This document shows, piece by piece, positions 6,190 to 64,000 of a stretch of 64,000 bases of DNA (the first letter of the stretch is position 1; the number at the start of each line of letters is the position of its first letter). The notes below the pieces were generated by a model, which made no database searches, had not been told where the DNA came from, and was given only the letters and a program-made list of their open reading frames with translations. This DNA comes from a virus. Taxonomy: Duplodnaviria; Heunggongvirae; Uroviricota; Caudoviricetes. A program made the position numbers and the translations under genes. The stretch lies in the IMG/VR virus record IMGVR_UViG_2925939204_000001. One strand, given 5' to 3'.

Positions 6190-7170
6190 GTGGCCCAGGA
6201 GTTACAACAATATTTTCTACAGTCAGTGCTCATTAACGATAACAAAGTGCCACGAGACTGGATTTTTACCGCAGTATATGTAGAAAAAACCAGCCTCAAA
6301 GCCCCTTTGCTAAAACTGGAAATTCATGACGCTACCGGCACCGTAATTGATGACTGGAAAGCCAAATACGGTGCATCGCTGGTGGCTGAAATGGGCGATC
6401 CAAACGGTAATGCAGGCACTTTTAAAACAGATTTCTTTGTTACGTCTGCAATGCTGGCTGGTGATGTTGTTACCGTTATTGCTGTCAGTGAAGACGTGCG
6501 CAGGTTTAAGATCCCCTCCCCGCGCACAAATTTACATACCAACAAAACACCAGACGCTATATTCAAGGCATATTCCGGCAAACTTAAAATTACCAGCAGC
6601 GTGCTAAAACGCGCAGTTACATATCATCTGAATGCCGGTGACAAACCGTCAAAAATGCTTTCGGAGATAGCGCGAGACAAAGGTGCATTGTGTTGGGTAT
6701 GTCGGGGGGAATTTAACTTTTACACCCTGGCTGATCTGATGAAGCAAACGCCATCATTTACCTACGAGGGGAATAACCCTAAAGCAGAATACACTTTGTC
6801 CAAAATGCGCCTACTCCAACAGGAACATGCGACAACAGCAAAGAATCAATATCGTTTTGTTGGGTATTCCATGACCGATGGCTACGTCGAATATGGCGAT
6901 AGCTCACTCCCAGTGCGTTATATATCCGACTCTGATATGGAAACTCTTCGCAATATGCAGCTGTCTCTCGTCCCCAAAATGGATATAGAAGTCGCAGGCA
7001 ATCCTGATATAAAACCGGGGATGGTAATAGAGATTATCGTATACCGCTATGACCAGGAAAACCGCATTGATGAATCAATGCCCCGTAAGCTGATAGTAAA
7101 AAATGTTGCGCACTTTGAGGACCGCGTAGGCTACACAACACGAATGATATTGGGAGTGCCTAACAAATGA
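6190..7170 (+). CDS. hypothetical protein, tail/baseplate module (326 aa)
   Basis: Operon context; no motif recognised. Confidence 0.5.
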   Translation: MAQELQQYFLQSVLINDNKVPRDWIFTAVYVEKTSLKAPLLKLEIHDATGTVIDDWKAKYGASLVAEMGDPNGNAGTFKTDFFVTSAMLAGDVVTVIAVSEDVRRFKIPSPRTNLHTNKTPDAIFKAYSGKLKITSSVLKRAVTYHLNAGDKPSKMLSEIARDKGALCWVCRGEFNFYTLADLMKQTPSFTYEGNNPKAEYTLSKMRLLQQEHATTAKNQYRFVGYSMTDGYVEYGDSSLPVRYISDSDMETLRNMQLSLVPKMDIEVAGNPDIKPGMVIEIIVYRYDQENRIDESMPRKLIVKNVAHFEDRVGYTTRMILGVPNK

Positions 7171-7820
7171 AGCGTAGAGCGCAAATTGTTGGAACTGTGC
7201 ACCCGGCAGGGCTTATGCGTGCTCAAGTCCGTGTTTTACCTGACTGGAATGGCGTTCCTGATGACGATCTACCCTGGGCGGAATACCAGTTACCCATCGG
7301 GAACGCTTTTGTACCTACAGTCAAAGGTGACCTGGTCTGGGTAGAGTTTCCTTATTTAGATGTTAACGGTCGAATAGACACCAGACGCCCAATGATAGTT
7401 GGTGCCGCTCAGGATGCACCGGGAGGAATTCCAAACGTTGCACCAGAAGCATCTGGTAAAGGCAACGGCTGGACGCCGCCGGAAGTAGATGGAGCACCTC
7501 CCCGCCCCCAAATCTCAGCAACGAAAGACTTCGTTATTCACCGCAACAATATTCTTGAAGTACGAACTGCTGGTGGCGGCTATGAAATTGCCAATACGGC
7601 AGCAGGCTCAAGGATTGGCATGAATGAGTCCGGGCAGATATATATCATTGGTCCGGCTGATGTAATCGTGAATGCAGGAGGGAGTGTTAACGTCAAATCA
7701 GCCAACAACATCAATGTTAATGGGGAAAATATAGCTGTCACCGCTAACGGAGACATAGCTTTCAAGGCAGGAGGAACCTTTCAGGCCACTGCTGGCAACT
7801 TCGATTTCAAGAAAGGATAG
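7167..7820 (+). CDS. baseplate spike-like protein candidate (217 aa)
   Basis: 4-nt overlap with upstream gene; Gly/Asn-rich repeats (NAGGSVNVKSANNINVNGENIAVTANGDIAF) suggest a beta-helical spike. Confidence 0.45.
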   Translation: MKRRAQIVGTVHPAGLMRAQVRVLPDWNGVPDDDLPWAEYQLPIGNAFVPTVKGDLVWVEFPYLDVNGRIDTRRPMIVGAAQDAPGGIPNVAPEASGKGNGWTPPEVDGAPPRPQISATKDFVIHRNNILEVRTAGGGYEIANTAAGSRIGMNESGQIYIIGPADVIVNAGGSVNVKSANNINVNGENIAVTANGDIAFKAGGTFQATAGNFDFKKG

Positions 7821-36555: not shown

Positions 36556-39542
36556 TTATGAATGCTGATAAAACGAACAACATAATGACACTATCCTCTG
36601 GTGTCTCACAGCCGTTGCTTGCTGATGTTCAATATTTCGAACTCTATAGTAGTCTGGCTCTTAACAGAAAACTAAAAAATATTGTTTTGCCTGGCTTTTA
36701 CTGTGGATTTGAACCGGTTCCCGGCACAGGGTTGAGTGTCCGTATAACTTCTGAAAACTCAGAAGGTAAAGGGGCTGCTTCAGTAGATGTAAATAATGTT
36801 CAGATATCCGTTCAGCAAATAGAAGATGTGACTGTCTCGGTAAAGGCAGGGGCTACCAACATTATTGTGCTGGAAGCCAATTTTGAACATGGTGTAAAAA
36901 CGACACAGGTAGATAGCGCATCTTTTGTCAGTGCTGCAAGAATTTACGCGCGTACGGACAATACTATTGGGCAGAATCAAATTGAATTATGTCGAGTTAT
37001 CGTGCCTAGCGGCGCAACGGCTGTGACTAAAGAAATGATTGTGCTTAAATACCGGGTTAACCGTGCTGTTGGTGTCGAATTCTCTAATGAAATAAGCAGT
37101 ACAGAAGAAAGAAAAGCGGCTACACCTCTGGCTGTCAAAACTCTCCATGATTTGGTTGATACAAAAGCCCCGATCAACAGCCCGAATCTGACAGGAACGC
37201 CAACAACACCAACAGCGACACAGGGGACTAATAATACCCAGATCGCAAGCACGGCTTTCGTTATGGCCGCGATTGCCGCACTTGTAGATTCGTCACCTGA
37301 TGCACTTAACACTCTGAACGAACTGGCCGCCGCGCTTGGTAATGATCCGAACTTTTCCGCGACAGTGACTCGCCTGATTGGGGAAAAAGTTGCCAAAGAT
37401 GGCGACACCATGGAAGGTAAACTTAATCTGCCGCAGACCTCTGCATTCGGCATCAATACCGACAACAGACTGGGGGGGAACTCTCTGACGCTGGGCGATC
37501 ACGATACCGGAATTAAACAGGAAGGAGACGGCGTATTGTCCGTGTTCGCCAACGGCCAGCGTGTGTTCCTTTTCACGGAAAGAAGTATTACCTCATTAAA
37601 AGAGCTTCTGATAGGTGATGCACGTTATAGCACCGGTGGTGATGTGTATGGCAGTCAGTGGGGAGACGGTTGGTTGAGTTCCTGGTTAAGTGCCCGCTTT
37701 GCAGAGTGTGCCAACGCCAGCCATAACCACCCTTGGAGCCAGATTACCGACGTACCAGCAGCCAGCCTCACTCAGAGCGGCATTGTACAACTTAGTAGTG
37801 CCACCAACAGCACTTCTGAAACATTAGCTGCAACGCCAAAAGCGGTTAAAGCTGCATACGATCTAGCAGCCGGAAAGGCACCATCCAGTCATACACATCC
37901 CTGGAATCAGATCACCGGTGTGCCAACAGCTTCATTGACAGCGAAAGGCATCACTCAGCTCAGTAGTGCCACTAACAGCACGTCCGAAGTGCTGGCCGCC
38001 ACACCGAAAGCTGTCAAGGCCGCATATGACCTGGCTAACGGGAAGTATACGGCCCAGGATGCAACCACGACACAAAAAGGGATAGTTCAGCTCAGTAGCG
38101 ACACCAACAGCACTTCTGAAACATTAGCTGCAACGCCAAAAGCGGTTAAAGCTGCATACGATCTAGCAGCCGGAAAGGCACCATCCAGTCATACACATCC
38201 CTGGAATCAGATCACCGGTGTGCCAACAGCTTCATTGACAGCGAAAGGCATCACTCAGCTCAGTAGTGCCACTAACAGCACGTCCGAAGTGCTGGCCGCC
38301 ACACCGAAAGCTGTCAAGGCCGCATATGACCTGGCTAACGGGAAGTATACGGCCCAGGATGCAACCACGACACAAAAAGGGATAGTTCAGCTCAGTAGCG
38401 ACACCAACAGCACTTCTGAAACATTAGCTGCAACGCCAAAAGCGGTTAAAGCTGCATACGATCTAGCAGCCGGAAAGGCACCATCCAGTCATACACATCC
38501 CTGGAATCAGATCACTAGTGTGCCAACAGCTTCATTGACAGCGAAAGGCATCACTCAGCTCAGTAGCGACACCAACAGCACGTCCGAAGTGCTGGCCGCC
38601 ACACCGAAAGCTGTCAAGGCCGCATATGACCTGGCTAACGGGAAGTATACGGCCCAGGATGCAACCACGACACAAAAAGGGATAGTTCAGCTCAGTAGCG
38701 ACACCAACAGCACTTCTGAAACATTAGCTGCAACGCCAAAAGCGGTTAAAGCTGCATACGATCTAGCAGCCGGAAAGGCACCATCCAGTCATACACATCC
38801 CTGGAATCAGATCACTAGTGTGCCAACAGCTTCATTGACAGCGAAAGGCATCACTCAGCTCAGTAGCGACACCAACAGCACGTCCGAAGTGCTGGCCGCC
38901 ACACCGAAAGCTGTCAAGGCTGCATATGATTTGGCTAATGGAAAGCAAGCGGCAGACACTACGCTCACTGCTCTAGCGGCACTAGCTACAGCAGCAGATA
39001 AACTCCCTTATTTCACAGGGGTTGATCGTGCCGCGTTAACTGCATTGACAAGTGTTGGACGCGCCATTCTTGGTAAGACCAGTATTCAGAGCGTTCTTGA
39101 TTACCTTCAATTGGGAGAAGCGGCAAAAAGGGGCGTGGGCACCGGTAGCAATCAACTCCCTGACATGTCCGCATTTGGTATGTCGCGAAACGGACAAACT
39201 GCCTGGGATATTCTCCCAAATGGTATGATTCGACAGGCTGGCACTGTGACACTGACACCAGTTGGTAACTTCAACGCGCAGGTGCTTGGTGGGGTGACGT
39301 ACTACACCCATTACTACAGGATTAATTTCCCCAGACAATTCCCAAATGCACAAATAGCAACGCTGGCTACACTAGCGAGTTACGCCTATTCGAACCAGGC
39401 AACAATGGCTGGAAAATCACTGGCAACGCATCGCGATACTGATTCTGGCACTGACGTATCAAGAACGCGATTCACTGTGGCGTATACGACACCCAATCTC
39501 GGCGAAATACCGACAGTGCATTTTGAATCAATAGGGTACTAA
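36552..39542 (+). CDS. tail fibre protein (996 aa)
   Basis: Eight copies of the ~50-aa phage tail-fibre repeat (QLSS.TNSTSE.LAATPKAVKAAYDLA.GK) flanked by HTHPWNQIT segments. Confidence 0.8.
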   Translation: MIMNADKTNNIMTLSSGVSQPLLADVQYFELYSSLALNRKLKNIVLPGFYCGFEPVPGTGLSVRITSENSEGKGAASVDVNNVQISVQQIEDVTVSVKAGATNIIVLEANFEHGVKTTQVDSASFVSAARIYARTDNTIGQNQIELCRVIVPSGATAVTKEMIVLKYRVNRAVGVEFSNEISSTEERKAATPLAVKTLHDLVDTKAPINSPNLTGTPTTPTATQGTNNTQIASTAFVMAAIAALVDSSPDALNTLNELAAALGNDPNFSATVTRLIGEKVAKDGDTMEGKLNLPQTSAFGINTDNRLGGNSLTLGDHDTGIKQEGDGVLSVFANGQRVFLFTERSITSLKELLIGDARYSTGGDVYGSQWGDGWLSSWLSARFAECANASHNHPWSQITDVPAASLTQSGIVQLSSATNSTSETLAATPKAVKAAYDLAAGKAPSSHTHPWNQITGVPTASLTAKGITQLSSATNSTSEVLAATPKAVKAAYDLANGKYTAQDATTTQKGIVQLSSDTNSTSETLAATPKAVKAAYDLAAGKAPSSHTHPWNQITGVPTASLTAKGITQLSSATNSTSEVLAATPKAVKAAYDLANGKYTAQDATTTQKGIVQLSSDTNSTSETLAATPKAVKAAYDLAAGKAPSSHTHPWNQITSVPTASLTAKGITQLSSDTNSTSEVLAATPKAVKAAYDLANGKYTAQDATTTQKGIVQLSSDTNSTSETLAATPKAVKAAYDLAAGKAPSSHTHPWNQITSVPTASLTAKGITQLSSDTNSTSEVLAATPKAVKAAYDLANGKQAADTTLTALAALATAADKLPYFTGVDRAALTALTSVGRAILGKTSIQSVLDYLQLGEAAKRGVGTGSNQLPDMSAFGMSRNGQTAWDILPNGMIRQAGTVTLTPVGNFNAQVLGGVTYYTHYYRINFPRQFPNAQIATLATLASYAYSNQATMAGKSLATHRDTDSGTDVSRTRFTVAYTTPNLGEIPTVHFESIGY
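37725..38945 (+). repeat. tandem 300-bp (100-aa) repeats, about four near-identical units
   Basis: Lines at 37801, 38101, 38401, 38701 are near-identical; each unit has two related ~150-bp half-units. Confidence 0.85.
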
Positions 39543-62105: not shown

Positions 62106-63314
62106 ATGAGTCAACACACTGATACTTCTAATCTGGAAATTATCTCGACAGCAATTGAAACGCTGCGCACACAAATCGCTCTTATACAGAAACGGAATCC
62201 GGGTGATGACCTGTCAAAGCGACTGCACGAGAGTGTCATTGCCACTACAGATAACCTGGTGGCGGAAATCAACAAGCTGCTTGATGATGGGGCAGTTGAT
62301 TACAATAAGCTGGTGGATCAGTTTGAGGAATACCAACAAGCCGTTAATGATGGCTTGATCCGTTTTTCACAAGTCACAGGCGTATCAGCGACAGTTGAAA
62401 GCCTGGGTGATGCAGTTAATCAATTTGCCGCGAATATGCGTAATGAGATCGGCAATCTGGAAGCGCGTCTTGAACAGGCAAATACACTGCGTAAATCTGC
62501 CGAAGCCGATTTGAACCGTTACAAAAAAGACTATCCGCCCAGCCTGACAAAGCGGCTGGATGTTGCGGAGAAGGATAACCGCACGCTGAAAAGAGAGCGC
62601 CGGGAACTAAAAGAGCGTTTAACCAAGCTCAATCAGAAATGCATTGATTATCAAGGCGAAGGCGTCACACTGCGTAAAAAGTTGGCTACAGCGCAGAGCA
62701 TTATCGAAACATTAAAGCGAGAGTGCTCACAGCTTGGTCACGATCTGAACCGTGCTTGTGGCATGGGACAAAGACCAGAGACATTTCCACTTATGTATGA
62801 TGGAAGGGATGCCATTGCCTACATCCATGAGTATCCACACGGCCTGGTTGCGGAAACTGGGCAGCGTGGCGAAGCACTGCTGACGGCTAATTACCATCAA
62901 CAAATCAGAACCAATCGCCTGTTAACGATGGATGTGATCCCATCGGTATGGGGAACGCCGCTTTACTATCGCCTGCCGGGCTTCGAAAAGGACTGGAATA
63001 CCGACATAGACGAATGTCTCGCAGATAAAATTATGGCGTACCTGGAGACGGATTTTCCGCGCTTATATCGCCGGATTATGGACTCTAAGGATGCGCCAAT
63101 CGATGAATTAAAAATGCGTCCGGAGACGCTGGAGGCAATCAAGCAGACGGAGTTTGATACTGTATTCAGTGTGGCCTGCATTCCAAGCTGTTTCCATGAA
63201 AGCATCCCGTTCATGCAAGGAGATCGTCGTCAGGAAATCATTGACGCTTGCCGGGTATGGGCGAACGAATGGGATAAGAAGAATGGGGGTGTAGAAGATC
63301 TTTACGGGAAATAA
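62106..63314 (+). CDS. hypothetical protein with N-terminal coiled coil and C-terminal globular domain (402 aa)
   Basis: Operator-like motif in its upstream region; no motif recognised. Confidence 0.55.
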   Translation: MSQHTDTSNLEIISTAIETLRTQIALIQKRNPGDDLSKRLHESVIATTDNLVAEINKLLDDGAVDYNKLVDQFEEYQQAVNDGLIRFSQVTGVSATVESLGDAVNQFAANMRNEIGNLEARLEQANTLRKSAEADLNRYKKDYPPSLTKRLDVAEKDNRTLKRERRELKERLTKLNQKCIDYQGEGVTLRKKLATAQSIIETLKRECSQLGHDLNRACGMGQRPETFPLMYDGRDAIAYIHEYPHGLVAETGQRGEALLTANYHQQIRTNRLLTMDVIPSVWGTPLYYRLPGFEKDWNTDIDECLADKIMAYLETDFPRLYRRIMDSKDAPIDELKMRPETLEAIKQTEFDTVFSVACIPSCFHESIPFMQGDRRQEIIDACRVWANEWDKKNGGVEDLYGK

Positions 63315-63315
63315 T

Positions 63316-63350
63316 ATGTTAGAAATCTAAAATCACAATTCGAATGTATT
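63316..63350 (+). promoter_or_regulatory. operator-like motif ATGTTAGAAA adjacent to late-promoter-like AAATCACA-N7-TGTATT
   Basis: Same juxtaposition as at 19501-19528. Confidence 0.4.
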
Positions 63351-63386
63351 GATTGTGAAGGTGACTTAACATAGAATTTTCCTTGC

Positions 63387-63458
63387 TGGTGGGCGGTACC
63401 CACGTTTCGCTTGCTGGGCTTGATAGTCACTTATTGGTTATTGTTCGCCCACCAGCAT
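63387..63458. other. 12-bp inverted repeat TGCTGGTGGGCG-N48-CGCCCACCAGCA
   Basis: Perfect arms enclosing a 48-nt segment. Confidence 0.5.
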
Positions 63459-63471
63459 TTAACAAATTAAA

Positions 63472-63482
63472 GTGTTAGAAAA
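63472..63482 (+). promoter_or_regulatory. operator-like motif GTGTTAGAAAA
   Basis: Second motif copy ~155 bp after the one at 63316. Confidence 0.4.
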
Positions 63483-64000
63483 GTATAGTAACGCAAGAGC
63501 ACGCTTTGGCACCGTGCAGGCCAAAGTTCAGCAGGTTTAGTGCGGAAAGTGGTTTCAGAGAGAGCACTTTGCGGAGTAAACGACAATACATGTTGAGCCA
63601 CGGAAGGTCTTTTTAAGGTGTTCATTGATGATGGTCCGGCAGAGAGTAACGGTACATGCTGCATCTAATCATCAATGCACATCTTCAACATTAAGGAGGC
63701 ATAGGGATTTTTGTGGCGGTTACCTTTTGCCCTGAGTCTCCTTAATGTTGCGGTAATGCACCTATGCGGATGTGGCCTTGCATTGTGTCTTGAAAGAATG
63801 GGGTAAGGCCGGGGATATCCCCAGGGGGAGGCACCCCCGCTGCAACGAACAGCCACAGACGGCAGTCGAGTGATGGGAACGTGCAAAGACTTTAAACCTC
63901 GTTATGGCTGGCGTGGCAAACGCGACAACCGAGACAGAGCGGTGACGGGCGGAGAGAGTGCCGCATCAAGAAAGAAGCCGACTTGTGATCCCTTTCAGCG

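What the first reader, a model, noticed from the sequence alone, without database searches (positions are those of the whole stretch)
63330..64000. Highly structured non-coding region with nested inverted repeats at the window end
No convincing ORF on either strand, yet many perfect inverted repeats: TGCTGGTGGGCG/CGCCCACCAGCA (63387-63458), CTTTGGC/GCCAAAG (~63503), CATTGATGAT/ATCATCAATG (~63626-63678), CAACATTAAGGAG/CTCCTTAATGTTG (~63683-63759, sequestering an AAGGAGG), GGGGATATCCCC and GGGGGAGGCACCCCC (~63810-63845). Two operator-like motifs lie at its start. It could be a structured regulatory RNA or leader for an immunity/repressor gene beyond the window, or another RNA element truncated by the window edge.
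Basis: seen in the sequence. Interest (0 to 1): 0.45.

Follow-up and report, generated by a model that had tools for sequence, protein, structure and literature searches.

The report
Structured leader of phage tRNA operon
The hairpin-rich stretch is most likely the untranslated, repressor-controlled leader RNA of the tRNA/tciAB operon of a D6-like (P1-related) phage-plasmid, a conserved but unannotated and functionally unknown RNA, and its first "stem" is really two opposed Chi sites.

Summary
The window is a D6-like phage-plasmid. The finding lies just after the pmgS stop (63314), in a ~2.2-kb stretch with no annotated gene.

The inverted repeats are real. Three large hairpins and the whole core fold far better than shuffles (z -4.4 to -5.4). 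The small GC palindromes do not.

A sigma-70-like promoter (63349-63377) keeps its hexamers and 17-nt spacing in four diverged lineages. It is flanked by two copies of a motif that behaves like the D6 repressor operator.

From about 63384 a ~700-nt non-coding + strand RNA would run to a conserved intrinsic terminator 65-90 nt past the window end. Beyond it come a tmRNA-like element, tRNA genes and tciAB. That is the layout of P1's C1-controlled ban operon, whose downstream leader is 91% identical.

The D6-specific part is built from modules. It occurs only on ~90-kb D6-like plasmids, matches no Rfam family and keeps its stems through compensatory and wobble changes.

A 31-aa hydrophobic ORF behind a sequestered AAGGAGG is disrupted in 5 of 11 sequence types, so it is probably not a maintained gene.

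The first "stem" is two inverted Chi octamers.

The parts
63316..63331 (+). Operator-like motif 1 (ATGTTAGAAATCTAAA), directly after the pmgS stop and 17 bp upstream of the -35 hexamer
   Evidence: Motif found 10x in the window vs 2.0 expected and 6x in L001 vs 0.45 expected. Copies also lie upstream of lpa and as an inverted pair upstream of an ORF I read from memory as KilA/Ant-like, which are the positions of P1 operators Op86 and Op53 as I recall them. Present in all aligned lineages.
63349..63377 (+). Sigma-70-like promoter: -35 TTGATT, 17-nt spacer, -10 TAGAAT; predicted start about 63384
   Evidence: L001 6050-6078 = window +57299. The same hexamers and 17-nt spacing recur in lineages L004, L006 and L008, although the spacer sequence differs.
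63384..63457 (+). Hairpin 1. Its invariant lower stem is two inverted Chi octamers GCTGGTGG (63385-63392 on +, 63449-63456 on -)
   Evidence: 12-nt perfect inverted repeat; z = -4.4. Chi occurs 31x in the window vs 1.7 expected. The upper stem changes GGGCG/CGCCC to GGGGA/TCCCC in the L004 lineage but is unpaired in the L008 lineage.
63472..63487 (+). Operator-like motif 2 (GTGTTAGAAAAGTATA), about 90 nt downstream of the predicted start. In the L006 lineage it lies in the spacer of a second promoter-like site
   Evidence: The GTTAGAAA core is invariant in the 25 aligned sequences, while the flanking T63473 varies in two. CTAACA-17-TATAAT in L006.
63504..63526 (+). Short hairpin CTTTGGC/GCCAAAG; it varies between lineages
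   Evidence: z = -1.7, so not beyond chance. The sequence is replaced in the L004 and L006 lineages.
63541..63576 (+). Hairpin Pa (CG-AAAGUG / CACUUU-CG), the start of the core module present in every lineage
   Evidence: Helix 9 (8 pairs, 99.5% of cells paired, one G-C/G-U switch); z = -3.7.
63612..63688 (+). Hairpin Pb (CAUUGAUGAU / AUCAUCAAUG plus extensions)
   Evidence: Repeat I1; z = -4.5. Helices 12-13: 18 pairs, with changes only to wobble or Watson-Crick alternatives.
63683..63753 (+). 21-22-bp hairpin Pc that sequesters AAGGAGG (63693-63699) against CUCCUU
   Evidence: Repeat I2; z = -5.4. Helix 14: 22 pairs, three with changes on both sides (A-U to G-C, G-C to A-U, C-G to U-A). The interior is inverted in L015 with the stem kept.
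63711..63806 (+). Candidate 31-aa hydrophobic ORF (TTG start; MWRLPFALSLLNVAVMHLCGCGLALCLERMG); probably not a maintained gene
   Evidence: In favour: three unrelated N-terminal versions stay in frame, and four of five substitutions I identified by eye in the conserved part are synonymous (alignments). Against: the start is lost in L007, L010 and L015, and the stop is lost in the L005 group (+1 G) and in L077. No Pfam, NCBIfam or PHROG match.
63758..63810 (+). Hairpins Pd and Pe (GGCCUUGC / GUAAGGCC); nearly invariant sequence
   Evidence: Helices 15-17; z = -1.1 on energy alone. Almost identical in lineages whose flanks are only 62-82% identical.
63811..63838 (+). Two GC mini-hairpins GGGGAUAUCCCC and GGGGGAGGCACCCCC
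   Evidence: and helices 18-19. Conserved, but z = -0.8.
63845..63966 (+). Module M4: conserved non-coding segment, absent from the L006/L007 lineages
   Evidence: The 85-aa ORF that starts at 63872 in D6 is broken by TGA in the L005, L014, L024 and L025 sequence types.
63967..64000 (+). 5' arm and inner stem of the long hairpin M5, cut by the window end (3' arm at window-equivalent 64029-64045; intrinsic terminator at 64065-64088)
   Evidence: three different basal stems (AAGAAAGAAGCC/GGCUUCUUUCUU, AAGAUAAAAGCC/GGCUUUUAUGUU, ACAUACAAGCC/GGCUUGUAUGU), all fully paired, -34 to -46 kcal/mol. Terminator GCCCAUC-UUCG-GGUGGGC-U6 found.

Best explanation
The region is the first ~620 nt of a ~700-nt untranslated, multi-hairpin leader RNA. 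It would be transcribed rightward from a sigma-70 promoter (63349-63377) placed directly after pmgS. Two copies of the D6-type repressor operator motif (63316-63331 and 63472-63487) flank that promoter.

It is the D6-lineage counterpart of the leader of phage P1's C1-repressed ban operon. In the plasmid prophage the repressor would keep it silent. On induction or infection the RNA is made. It either stops at a conserved intrinsic terminator 65-90 nt beyond the window, which acts as an attenuator, or reads through into a tmRNA-like element, the tRNA genes and tciAB.

The leader is assembled from separable stem-loop modules that differ between lineages. Its long, near-perfect stems (17-22 bp) most likely serve as processing and stability determinants. 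They are substrates of the RNase III type, they give a G-rich, highly folded RNA that should be a poor Rho substrate (my inference), and they keep a vestigial small ORF untranslated.

The first 'stem' owes its invariance to two opposed Chi sites, which is a DNA-level feature.

Shown here: synteny and homology, conserved promoter and terminator consensus, operator-motif enrichment, stem conservation with compensation, and lack of coding constraint. Inferred: that the region is transcribed, that C1 represses it, that the terminator attenuates, and that RNases cut the stems.
For: Identity and context: 99.6% identical to phage D6 and found on 118 D6-like plasmids. The D6 record shows pmgS, then ~2.2 kb without a CDS, then tciA. 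The tRNAs lie on the same strand.

Homology to P1: D6 6763-7250 is 91% identical to the P1 segment between the Op72/P1ban promoter and trnA.

Promoter: hexamers and spacing are conserved in four lineages although the spacer has diverged.

Operator motif: enriched 5-fold or more, and placed like P1 Op86 and Op53. D6-like plasmids carry a C1 homologue (PMC6799933).

Terminator: conserved, with differing stem sequences.

Structure: z about -5. 99.1% of 2544 pair cells are paired, against 37-47% when partners are slid. One-sided changes are almost all G-U to G-C or A-U switches on the + strand. Compensatory changes occur in the AAGGAGG hairpin and in M5.

Non-coding: ORFs are broken in relatives, there are no protein homologues, and no CDS is called in the listed E. 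coli copies.

Strand: G exceeds C throughout the + strand of the leader.
Against: No expression data were available, so transcription, its start and its end are predictions.

Covariation is thin. Only 4 of 106 pairs in the first 460 nt show changes on both sides. The sequences fall into about four recombining lineages, so independent events are few.

The two flanking operators do not overlap the -35 or -10 hexamers as P1 Op72 does. A second promoter-like site appears only in one lineage.

D6 has no ban gene behind tciAB, so the operon is only partly equivalent to P1's.

Attenuation and RNase III cleavage are unproven. The partly conserved 31-aa ORF leaves room for a coding function. Nothing here says what the RNA modules do.
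Confidence: 0.6

Rival explanations
1. The core is the mRNA of a small hydrophobic membrane peptide (31 aa, 63711-63806). Its Shine-Dalgarno sequence is locked in a 21-bp hairpin, as in type I toxin or small lysis/division-inhibitor genes. The surrounding folds control when it is translated.
For: A perfect AAGGAGG lies 7-15 nt before an in-frame TTG or GTG in most variants. Three unrelated N-terminal sequences all stay open and hydrophobic. Four of the five substitutions I identified in the conserved 24 codons are synonymous (CTG>CTA, AAT>AAC, GCG>GCA, TGT>TGC; alignments). The 3' arm of the hairpin is codons 8-13.
Against: Five of 11 sequence states disrupt the ORF. The start is lost in L007, L010 and L015. 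The stop is lost through +1 G in the common L005 group and, in L077, through what the extended peptide implies is TAA>CAA, a change that by my reading would also improve a stem pair. All four synonymous changes also preserve base pairs, so RNA structure explains them equally well. I estimate P about 0.06 for that many synonymous transitions. The start codon is weak (TTG) and its spacing varies. No antisense promoter is conserved. No Pfam, NCBIfam or PHROG match. PGAP does not call it in any listed copy.
Confidence: 0.2
2. The ~700-nt RNA, or pieces cut from it such as the M5 hairpin plus the terminator, is a stand-alone trans-acting RNA. It could be an sRNA precursor, a sponge or a decoy made early after induction, rather than a cis-acting leader. 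Read-through into the tRNAs would then be incidental.
For: It has its own promoter and its own intrinsic terminator. Modules are gained and lost as units between lineages, and the slot holds the 'dicF-like' module in P1. The 3' end has the layout I associate with Hfq-type sRNAs: a single-stranded AU-rich stretch, then a terminator hairpin and a U-tail. The neighbours are all RNA genes.
Against: No target was found. The only complementarity of 14 nt or more to the rest of the window is a single hit, which I estimate to be near chance. No Rfam family matches, including DicF and C4. The distribution is confined to one plasmid lineage. The covariation does not single out any loop as a seed.
Confidence: 0.25
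3. The repeats act at the DNA level only, as Chi sites, cruciforms or protein-binding palindromes in a recombination-prone spacer. Any RNA folding is a by-product.
For: The first repeat is two opposed Chi sites in a genome with 31 Chi sites per 64 kb. One variant (L015) carries an exact inversion of the interior of the AAGGAGG palindrome, the kind of event I would expect from hairpin or cruciform template switching. Folding z-scores are equal on both strands.
Against: Apart from the Chi pair, stems tolerate G-U on the + strand. These would be A-C mismatches on the - strand and have no meaning in duplex DNA. The + strand fold is 40 kcal/mol more stable. A promoter, a terminator and tRNA genes on the + strand frame the region. 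Stems are imperfect with conserved bulges, which is unlike protein-binding palindromes.
Confidence: 0.1
4. It is a decayed remnant of former genes, or neutral spacer, with no function.
For: No annotated function, restriction to one lineage, and a mosaic structure.
Against: The 110 nt at 63740-63850 are nearly invariant in lineages whose flanks are 62-82% identical. Stems are kept by compensation. Six-frame ORFs have no relatives among 50,697 phage records. Folding energy is about 5 sd beyond shuffles.
Confidence: 0.05

Closest known systems
Leader of the phage P1 ban operon (promoters P1ban/P2ban with the bivalent C1 operator Op72ab, a 'dicF-like region', trnA, trnT, tciABC, trnI, ban), as annotated in NC_005856
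   Same: Same genomic logic: a repressor-operator-controlled sigma-70 promoter at the 3' end of the preceding gene, then a long untranslated leader, the same UUCG-loop intrinsic terminator, the same 460-nt downstream segment (91% identical), then tRNA-Asn, tRNA-Thr and tciAB.
   Different: The ~680 nt between promoter and terminator are unrelated to P1's ~190 nt. P1 carries only module M6, which the window lineage lacks. The operator sequence is D6-specific (TGTTAGAAA..., not ATTGCTCTAATAAATTT). The operators flank the promoter rather than overlap it. The preceding gene is pmgS, not dmt. No ban gene follows in D6.
dicB operon / DicF precursor of the Qin prophage (from my knowledge of the literature: an sRNA cut out of a long prophage transcript by RNase III and RNase E and ending at an intrinsic terminator)
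   Same: A prophage-borne, repressor-controlled transcript in which structured non-coding RNA precedes a terminator. P1's module in the same slot was annotated 'dicF-like'.
   Different: The Rfam DicF model does not match D6, P1 or the other lineages at E <= 0.5-10. No ftsZ-type target was identified. The window lineage lacks the 'dicF-like' module altogether.
Type I toxin mRNAs such as hok/sok, tisB or zorO (from my knowledge: a small hydrophobic ORF whose ribosome-binding site is sequestered by mRNA folding)
   Same: A 31-aa hydrophobic ORF, a strong SD sequence buried in a long hairpin, a long structured 5' region, and a location on a plasmid-prophage.
   Different: The ORF is disrupted in 5 of 11 sequence states. 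No conserved antisense promoter. No family match.
RNase III processing hairpins of phage early transcripts (T7 R1-R5, lambda N leader; from my knowledge)
   Same: 17-22-bp near-perfect stems with a single internal mismatch, in an early, repressor-controlled phage transcript upstream of genes that must be released from the precursor.
   Different: Cleavage is untested. There is no sequence similarity. The stems here sit in a non-coding leader ahead of tRNA genes rather than between mRNAs.
Large ornate phage-associated ncRNAs found next to tRNA genes (GOLLD, ROOL; from my knowledge)
   Same: Several hundred nucleotides, multi-hairpin, phage-borne, adjacent to tRNA genes, function unknown.
   Different: No Rfam match to these or any family. 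Confined to one enterobacterial plasmid-prophage lineage. Modular rather than a single conserved architecture. Little covariation.

Membership tests
P1 ban-type C1-controlled operon leader | Repressor operator(s) at the promoter | tested here: met
   Met at sequence level only. The motif TGTTAGAAANNTAAA occurs 10x vs 2 expected. Two copies flank the promoter. Other copies sit where I recall P1 Op86 (lpa) and Op53 (kilA) to be. Binding by the D6 repressor was not testable.
P1 ban-type C1-controlled operon leader | Sigma-70 promoter on the strand of the tRNA genes | tested here: met
   TTGATT-17-TAGAAT, conserved in four lineages. The tRNAs are on the + strand.
P1 ban-type C1-controlled operon leader | Downstream homologous leader segment, trnA/trnT and tciAB | tested here: met
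   91% identity over 488 nt to P1. Feature tables.
P1 ban-type C1-controlled operon leader | Sequence homology of the promoter-proximal leader itself | tested here: not met
   P1, P7, SJ46 and RCS47 match only from the terminator onward (query 748-1235). P1's module M6 is absent from the window lineage.
P1 ban-type C1-controlled operon leader | ban (DnaB-like helicase) as a distal gene of the operon | tested here: not met
   In D6, tciAB are followed by orf6, orf5, lpa and pacA.
Type I toxin-antitoxin (hok/sok-like) | Small hydrophobic ORF with a structurally sequestered ribosome-binding site | tested here: met
   31-aa ORF at 63711-63806. AAGGAGG lies in a 21-bp stem of -31.5 kcal/mol, z = -5.4.
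Type I toxin-antitoxin (hok/sok-like) | ORF maintained by purifying selection in relatives | tested here: not met
   Start lost in three sequence states and stop lost in two, of 11 states.
Type I toxin-antitoxin (hok/sok-like) | Antisense or divergent antitoxin RNA gene | tested here: not met
   No conserved - strand promoter-like site over the ORF or its 5' region in D6, L004, L006 or L008. This was a consensus scan only.
Any Rfam 15 family (including DicF, C4, tmRNA, GOLLD, ROOL) | Covariance-model score at or above the gathering threshold | tested here: not met
   The best hits inside the finding are 18.4 and 15.9 bits, E = 0.6-2.9, to unrelated families. Nothing in the D6, L004 or L006 versions.
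Chi recombination hotspot | Exact octamer 5'-GCTGGTGG-3', over-represented in the replicon | tested here: met
   63385-63392 (+) and 63449-63456 (-). 31 sites in 64 kb vs 1.66 expected, and 0 of 100 shuffles reach that.
Intrinsic terminator / attenuator | GC-rich hairpin followed by a U-run, conserved, upstream of the distal genes | tested here: met
   GCCCATC-TTCG-GGTGGGC-T6 at L001 6766-6789 (window-equivalent 64065-64088, outside the window). Present in all lineages and in P1. Termination efficiency was not testable.
RNase III processing site | About two turns of dsRNA that are cleaved in vivo | not testable with these tools
   Stems of 21-22 bp (63686-63750) and 17-20 bp (M5) fit the length requirement. 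Cleavage needs experiments.

The most novel reading that the evidence does not exclude
The ~700-nt RNA is not just a leader. It is a stand-alone, lineage-specific, induction-specific non-coding RNA that belongs to an 'RNA island': modular hairpin RNA, then a tmRNA-like tag-encoding RNA, tRNAs, a tRNA-like minihelix and an STnc100-like RNA. The phage-plasmid would use this island to take over or protect the host translation and RNA-surveillance machinery early in lytic growth, for example as a decoy for RNases or RNA-targeting defences, or as a source of trans-acting sRNAs.
Probability: 0.15. Interest if true: 0.7.

Novelty: new variant of a known kind. Interest (0 to 1): 0.4.

Why it matters
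D6-like phage-plasmids are common in E. coli, Salmonella and Shigella. The element is in 98 of 5,426 complete E. coli genomes searched here and on 118 plasmids of PLSDB. Their ~2-kb block of RNA genes is blank in the annotation tables seen here, apart from the tRNAs in the D6 record.

Recognising this stretch as a repressor-controlled, structured leader gives a concrete model for how the tRNA/tciAB module is switched on at induction. The model has a promoter, two operators, an attenuator and defined helices, all of which can be mutated.

The work also shows that the slot between promoter and terminator is a cassette site where P1-like elements exchange non-coding RNA modules.

The practical lesson for a genome scan is that 'perfect inverted repeats' can be opposed Chi sites, and that a buried AAGGAGG need not mark a gene.

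Tried and rejected
Rfam scans at permissive E-values of the window end, of the whole D6 intergenic block, of P1 and of two other lineages. Nothing turned up in the finding region.

Searches for copies outside D6-like plasmids. GTDB species representatives gave none. IMG/VR and the metagenomes gave only the same plasmid lineage. E. coli chromosomes gave none.

Coding tests. Pfam, NCBIfam and PHROGs on three versions of the small peptide gave no credible hit. tblastn of the 85-aa and 73-aa ORFs found D6 only. The 85-aa ORF is broken by TGA in relatives.

DicF-like identity: rejected, because the P1 'dicF-like' module is absent here and Rfam DicF does not match.

A group II intron 5' end, RNase P RNA and a c4-type antisense RNA were early guesses from reading the sequence. 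None has Rfam support.

An invertible DNA switch, suggested by the L015 inversion, was rejected. It occurs in one of 43 sequence types, and by my judgement the 41-bp interior is too short for an invertase.

A search for antisense targets in the rest of the window gave a single 14-nt match, which I estimate to be near chance.

Literature searches found no description of this region. The P1 genome paper and the D6 genome paper are not held in the library.
Full report
**What the window is**

The last 700 bases of the window are 99.6% identical to Escherichia phage D6, a P1-related plasmid-prophage. They are 80-99.7% identical to 118 non-mobilizable ~90-kb plasmids of E. coli, Salmonella and Shigella. 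Window coordinate = D6 locus L001 coordinate + 57299.

The 402-aa ORF that ends at 63314 is the PmgS-like head-morphogenesis gene. In D6 it is followed by ~2.2 kb without any annotated protein gene. This stretch ends at tciA and contains tRNA-Asn, tRNA-Thr and tRNA-Ser(UGA). By Rfam and ARAGORN these tRNAs lie on the same strand as pmgS and tciA. The finding is the first third of that block.

- The D6 copy of the 708-nt stretch from the predicted transcription start to the terminator folds about 5 sd better than dinucleotide shuffles. This is true on both strands, but the + strand is 40 kcal/mol more stable.
- The 299-nt core 63545-63843 has z = -4.7, with 0 of 200 shuffles folding as well.
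- Three hairpins carry most of the signal: 63384-63457 (z -4.4), 63612-63688 (z -4.5) and 63683-63753 (z -5.4). A smaller one at 63541-63578 has z -3.7.
- The short CTTTGGC/GCCAAAG repeat and the two GC palindromes are not unusual on energy alone (z -0.8 to -1.7).
- No ORF longer than 73 aa exists. The longest ORFs have no relatives outside D6. NCBI's pipeline calls nothing here in the listed E. coli plasmid copies.

**Genomic logic: a P1 ban-type operon**

The part of the D6 block downstream of the window (L001 6763-7250) is 91% identical to phage P1. In P1 that DNA lies between the promoters P1ban/P2ban, which carry the bivalent C1 operator Op72ab, and trnA-trnT-tciABC-trnI-ban. It is therefore the leader of the C1-repressed ban operon.

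The window lineage has the same parts in the same order.

- *Promoter.* A sigma-70-like promoter, TTGATT-17-TAGAAT, lies at 63349-63377. Its hexamers and 17-nt spacing are kept in four lineages whose spacer sequences differ. That pattern is what I would expect of a working promoter.
- *Operators.* The motif TGTTAGAAANNTAAA occurs 10 times in the window against 2 expected. One copy lies upstream of lpa. An inverted pair lies upstream of an ORF I read from memory as KilA/Ant-like. These are the places where, as I recall, P1 has Op86 and Op53. D6-like plasmids encode a C1 homologue (PMC6799933). Two copies flank the promoter, at 63316-63331 and 63472-63487. They are present in every aligned lineage, though the latter shows point changes in a few sequences.
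- *Terminator.* A UUCG-loop hairpin followed by six U's, shared with P1, sits at window-equivalent 64065-64088 in every lineage.

The predicted product is therefore a ~700-nt + strand RNA that starts near 63384. Its read-through enters the tRNA genes and tciAB.

**The D6-specific leader is modular and conserved as RNA**

I collected 43 distinct versions (62-100% identical) from plasmids, IMG/VR and metagenomes. They share a core (63541-63843) but differ by whole modules.

| Module | Window position | Distribution |
|---|---|---|
| M4 | 63845-63966 | absent from the Shigella dysenteriae / E. fergusonii lineages |
| M5 | 63967 to window-equivalent 64045 | present in all |
| M6 | not in the window | ~130 nt, present only in some lineages; it is the module P1 carries there, annotated 'dicF-like' |

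On 25 sequences RNAalifold gives 106 pairs for the first 460 nt. Of 2544 pair cells, 99.1% are paired, against 37-47% when partners are slid by 1-3 columns. Only four pairs change on both sides, and three of those are in the AAGGAGG hairpin. Some twenty further pairs switch between G-U and G-C or A-U. Such wobble pairs exist only on the + strand.

M5, which the window edge cuts, has three different basal stems. All are fully paired, and a different inner stem is also paired.

Covariation is real but thin, because the sample is about four recombining lineages. I could not run a tree-aware test.

No Rfam family matches any version of the leader. The element occurs only in this plasmid lineage: 98 of 5,426 complete E. 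coli genomes, never on a chromosome, and none among GTDB species representatives.

**The first 'stem' is a pair of Chi sites**

TGCTGGTGG and CCACCAGCA are 5'-GCTGGTGG-3' on the + strand (63385-63392) and on the - strand (63449-63456). The window holds 31 Chi octamers against 1.7 expected.

The nine invariant base pairs of this hairpin are exactly the Chi sequences. The upper stem is compensated in one lineage and unpaired in another. Selection on DNA therefore explains this repeat at least as well as RNA folding. From what I know of RecBCD, opposed sites would attenuate it from either direction.

**The small ORF**

AAGGAGG (63693-63699) is buried in a 21-bp stem. It precedes an in-frame TTG and a 31-codon hydrophobic ORF (63711-63806).

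In favour of coding:
- Three unrelated loop sequences all keep a start codon and an open, hydrophobic N-terminus.
- Four of the five substitutions I identified by eye in the conserved 24 codons are synonymous (alignments).

Against coding:
- All four synonymous changes also keep base pairs.
- The start is lost in three sequence types. One of these loses it through an exact inversion of the hairpin interior that preserves the stem.
- The stop is lost in the common L005 group through an extra G.
- The stop is also lost in L077. The extended peptide implies TAA>CAA, which by my reading turns a G-U pair into G-C.
- No protein family matches.

I rate a maintained peptide gene at about 0.2.

**Mechanism**

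The best-supported reading (0.6) is a repressor-controlled, untranslated leader that ends in an attenuator. Its long stems would act as processing and stability elements, of the RNase III type, for the RNA-gene operon behind it. Its modules are exchangeable cargo.

- Shown: the context, the signals, the stems and the lack of coding constraint.
- Inferred: transcription, repression, attenuation and cleavage.

The rivals are a type I-toxin-like peptide gene (0.2), a stand-alone trans-acting RNA or sRNA precursor (0.25, not exclusive of the leader role), DNA-only palindromes (0.1) and junk (0.05).

Right about the structure, the non-coding nature, the operator-like motifs and an RNA cut by the window edge. 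Wrong about what lies beyond: RNA genes and tciAB, not an immunity or repressor gene.

**Novelty and interest**

This is a new, unannotated variant of a known kind of element, the leader of the P1 ban-type operon. Interest is moderate (0.4).

**Side observation outside the window**

The next ~190 nt of the same transcript, shared with P1, belong to an element found in 293 phage records of many unrelated groups. It carries a 10-codon frame that reads like an SsrA tag: ANDDLMMVAA in P1 and D6. Nine of the ten phages examined are not close relatives of the window. In them the frame reads ANDNEFKVAA, ANDDVVLMAA, ANEEMYLAVA or ANDNTFLAVA, and phages with the same tag differ at synonymous positions.

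The Rfam permuted and beta-proteobacterial tmRNA models match it below threshold (24-34 bits against a gathering score of 47). ARAGORN and the record annotations miss it. This deserves its own investigation.

Noticed in passing
Outside the window: L001 (D6) 6792-6985 = window-equivalent 64091-64284; P1 L012 2532-2720; also L066-L068 and L086-L090: A tmRNA-like non-coding element lies in the same leader, shared with P1 and found in 293 phage records (Ackermannviridae, N4-like Schitoviridae, siphoviruses, lambdoid HK633). It has a conserved 5' part (GCGACUUUGCGG..UUUAGAAAC.GACC..AUAAAU) followed by a 10-codon SsrA-tag-like frame: ANDDLMMVAA in P1 and D6, and ANDNEFKVAA, ANDDVVLMAA, ANEEMYLAVA or ANDNTFLAVA elsewhere. 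Phages with the same tag differ at synonymous positions. The Rfam tmRNA_permuted and beta_tmRNA models match at 24-34 bits, below the gathering score. ARAGORN calls nothing, and the records mostly show no feature there.
   Followed up: partly
window 1-64000 (31 sites, e.g. 55147-/55181+ and 63385+/63449-): The Chi octamer GCTGGTGG is about 19-fold over-represented (31 sites vs 1.66 expected), and some sites form closely spaced opposed pairs. P1 is, as I recall, also known to be Chi-rich.
   Followed up: partly
window 7837, 17495/17510, 19503, 49919, 51124, 61025, 62068, 63317, 63473; L001 10454-10469: A dispersed 15-16-nt motif (A)TGTTAGAAAAnTAAT appears to be the D6-type C1 operator, distinct from P1's ATTGCTCTAATAAATTT as I recall it. 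Copies lie upstream of pmgS, of lpa and of an ORF I read as KilA/Ant-like, the last as an inverted pair.
   Followed up: partly
L001 7250-7322, 7328-7400, 7869-7955 (NC_050154.1 7145-7850): The D6 RefSeq feature table places the three tRNA genes on the opposite strand from the one on which Rfam and ARAGORN find them. This looks like a strand error in the record.
   Followed up: no
L001 ~7413-7480 (beyond the window): A tRNA-like minihelix follows tRNA-Thr in D6. It has a 7-bp acceptor-like stem (GGGUAUU/AAGUACCC), a perfect T-arm (GGGUUCGAAUCCC) and no anticodon arm, which resembles a tmRNA tRNA-like domain. Neither ARAGORN nor the Rfam tRNA model calls it.
   Followed up: no
L001 8065-8185; L004 4479-4616 (beyond the window, just upstream of tciA): A sub-threshold but consistent match to the Salmonella sRNA family STnc100 (39.6 and 40.8 bits; gathering score 47; E about 2-4e-6).
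   Followed up: no
L015 (IMGVR_UViG_3300015157_000028), equivalent to window 63699-63737: The interior of the AAGGAGG hairpin is replaced by its exact reverse complement. The stem is kept and the small ORF is destroyed. This is probably a palindrome-mediated template switch or an assembly artefact.
   Followed up: partly
L004, L005, L010, L011, L026 etc. versus L001; tRNA sets in L004, L006 and L008: The tRNA cargo downstream differs between lineages: Asn-Thr-Ser in D6, Arg-Tyr-Thr-Ser-Met in L004, and Asn-Thr-Met in L006. The whole RNA block, not just the leader, is therefore a cassette region.
   Followed up: no
L003 (NZ_MK356557.1, Salmonella plasmid pSa1423-90k): This copy carries many single-base indels in homopolymers across the region, which look like sequencing errors. 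I excluded it from the structure and ORF counts.
   Followed up: no
window 63901-63914 versus 37714-37727: A single 14-nt perfect complementarity links leader module M4 to the + strand at 37.7 kb. I estimate this to be near chance, and I did not identify the gene there.
   Followed up: no
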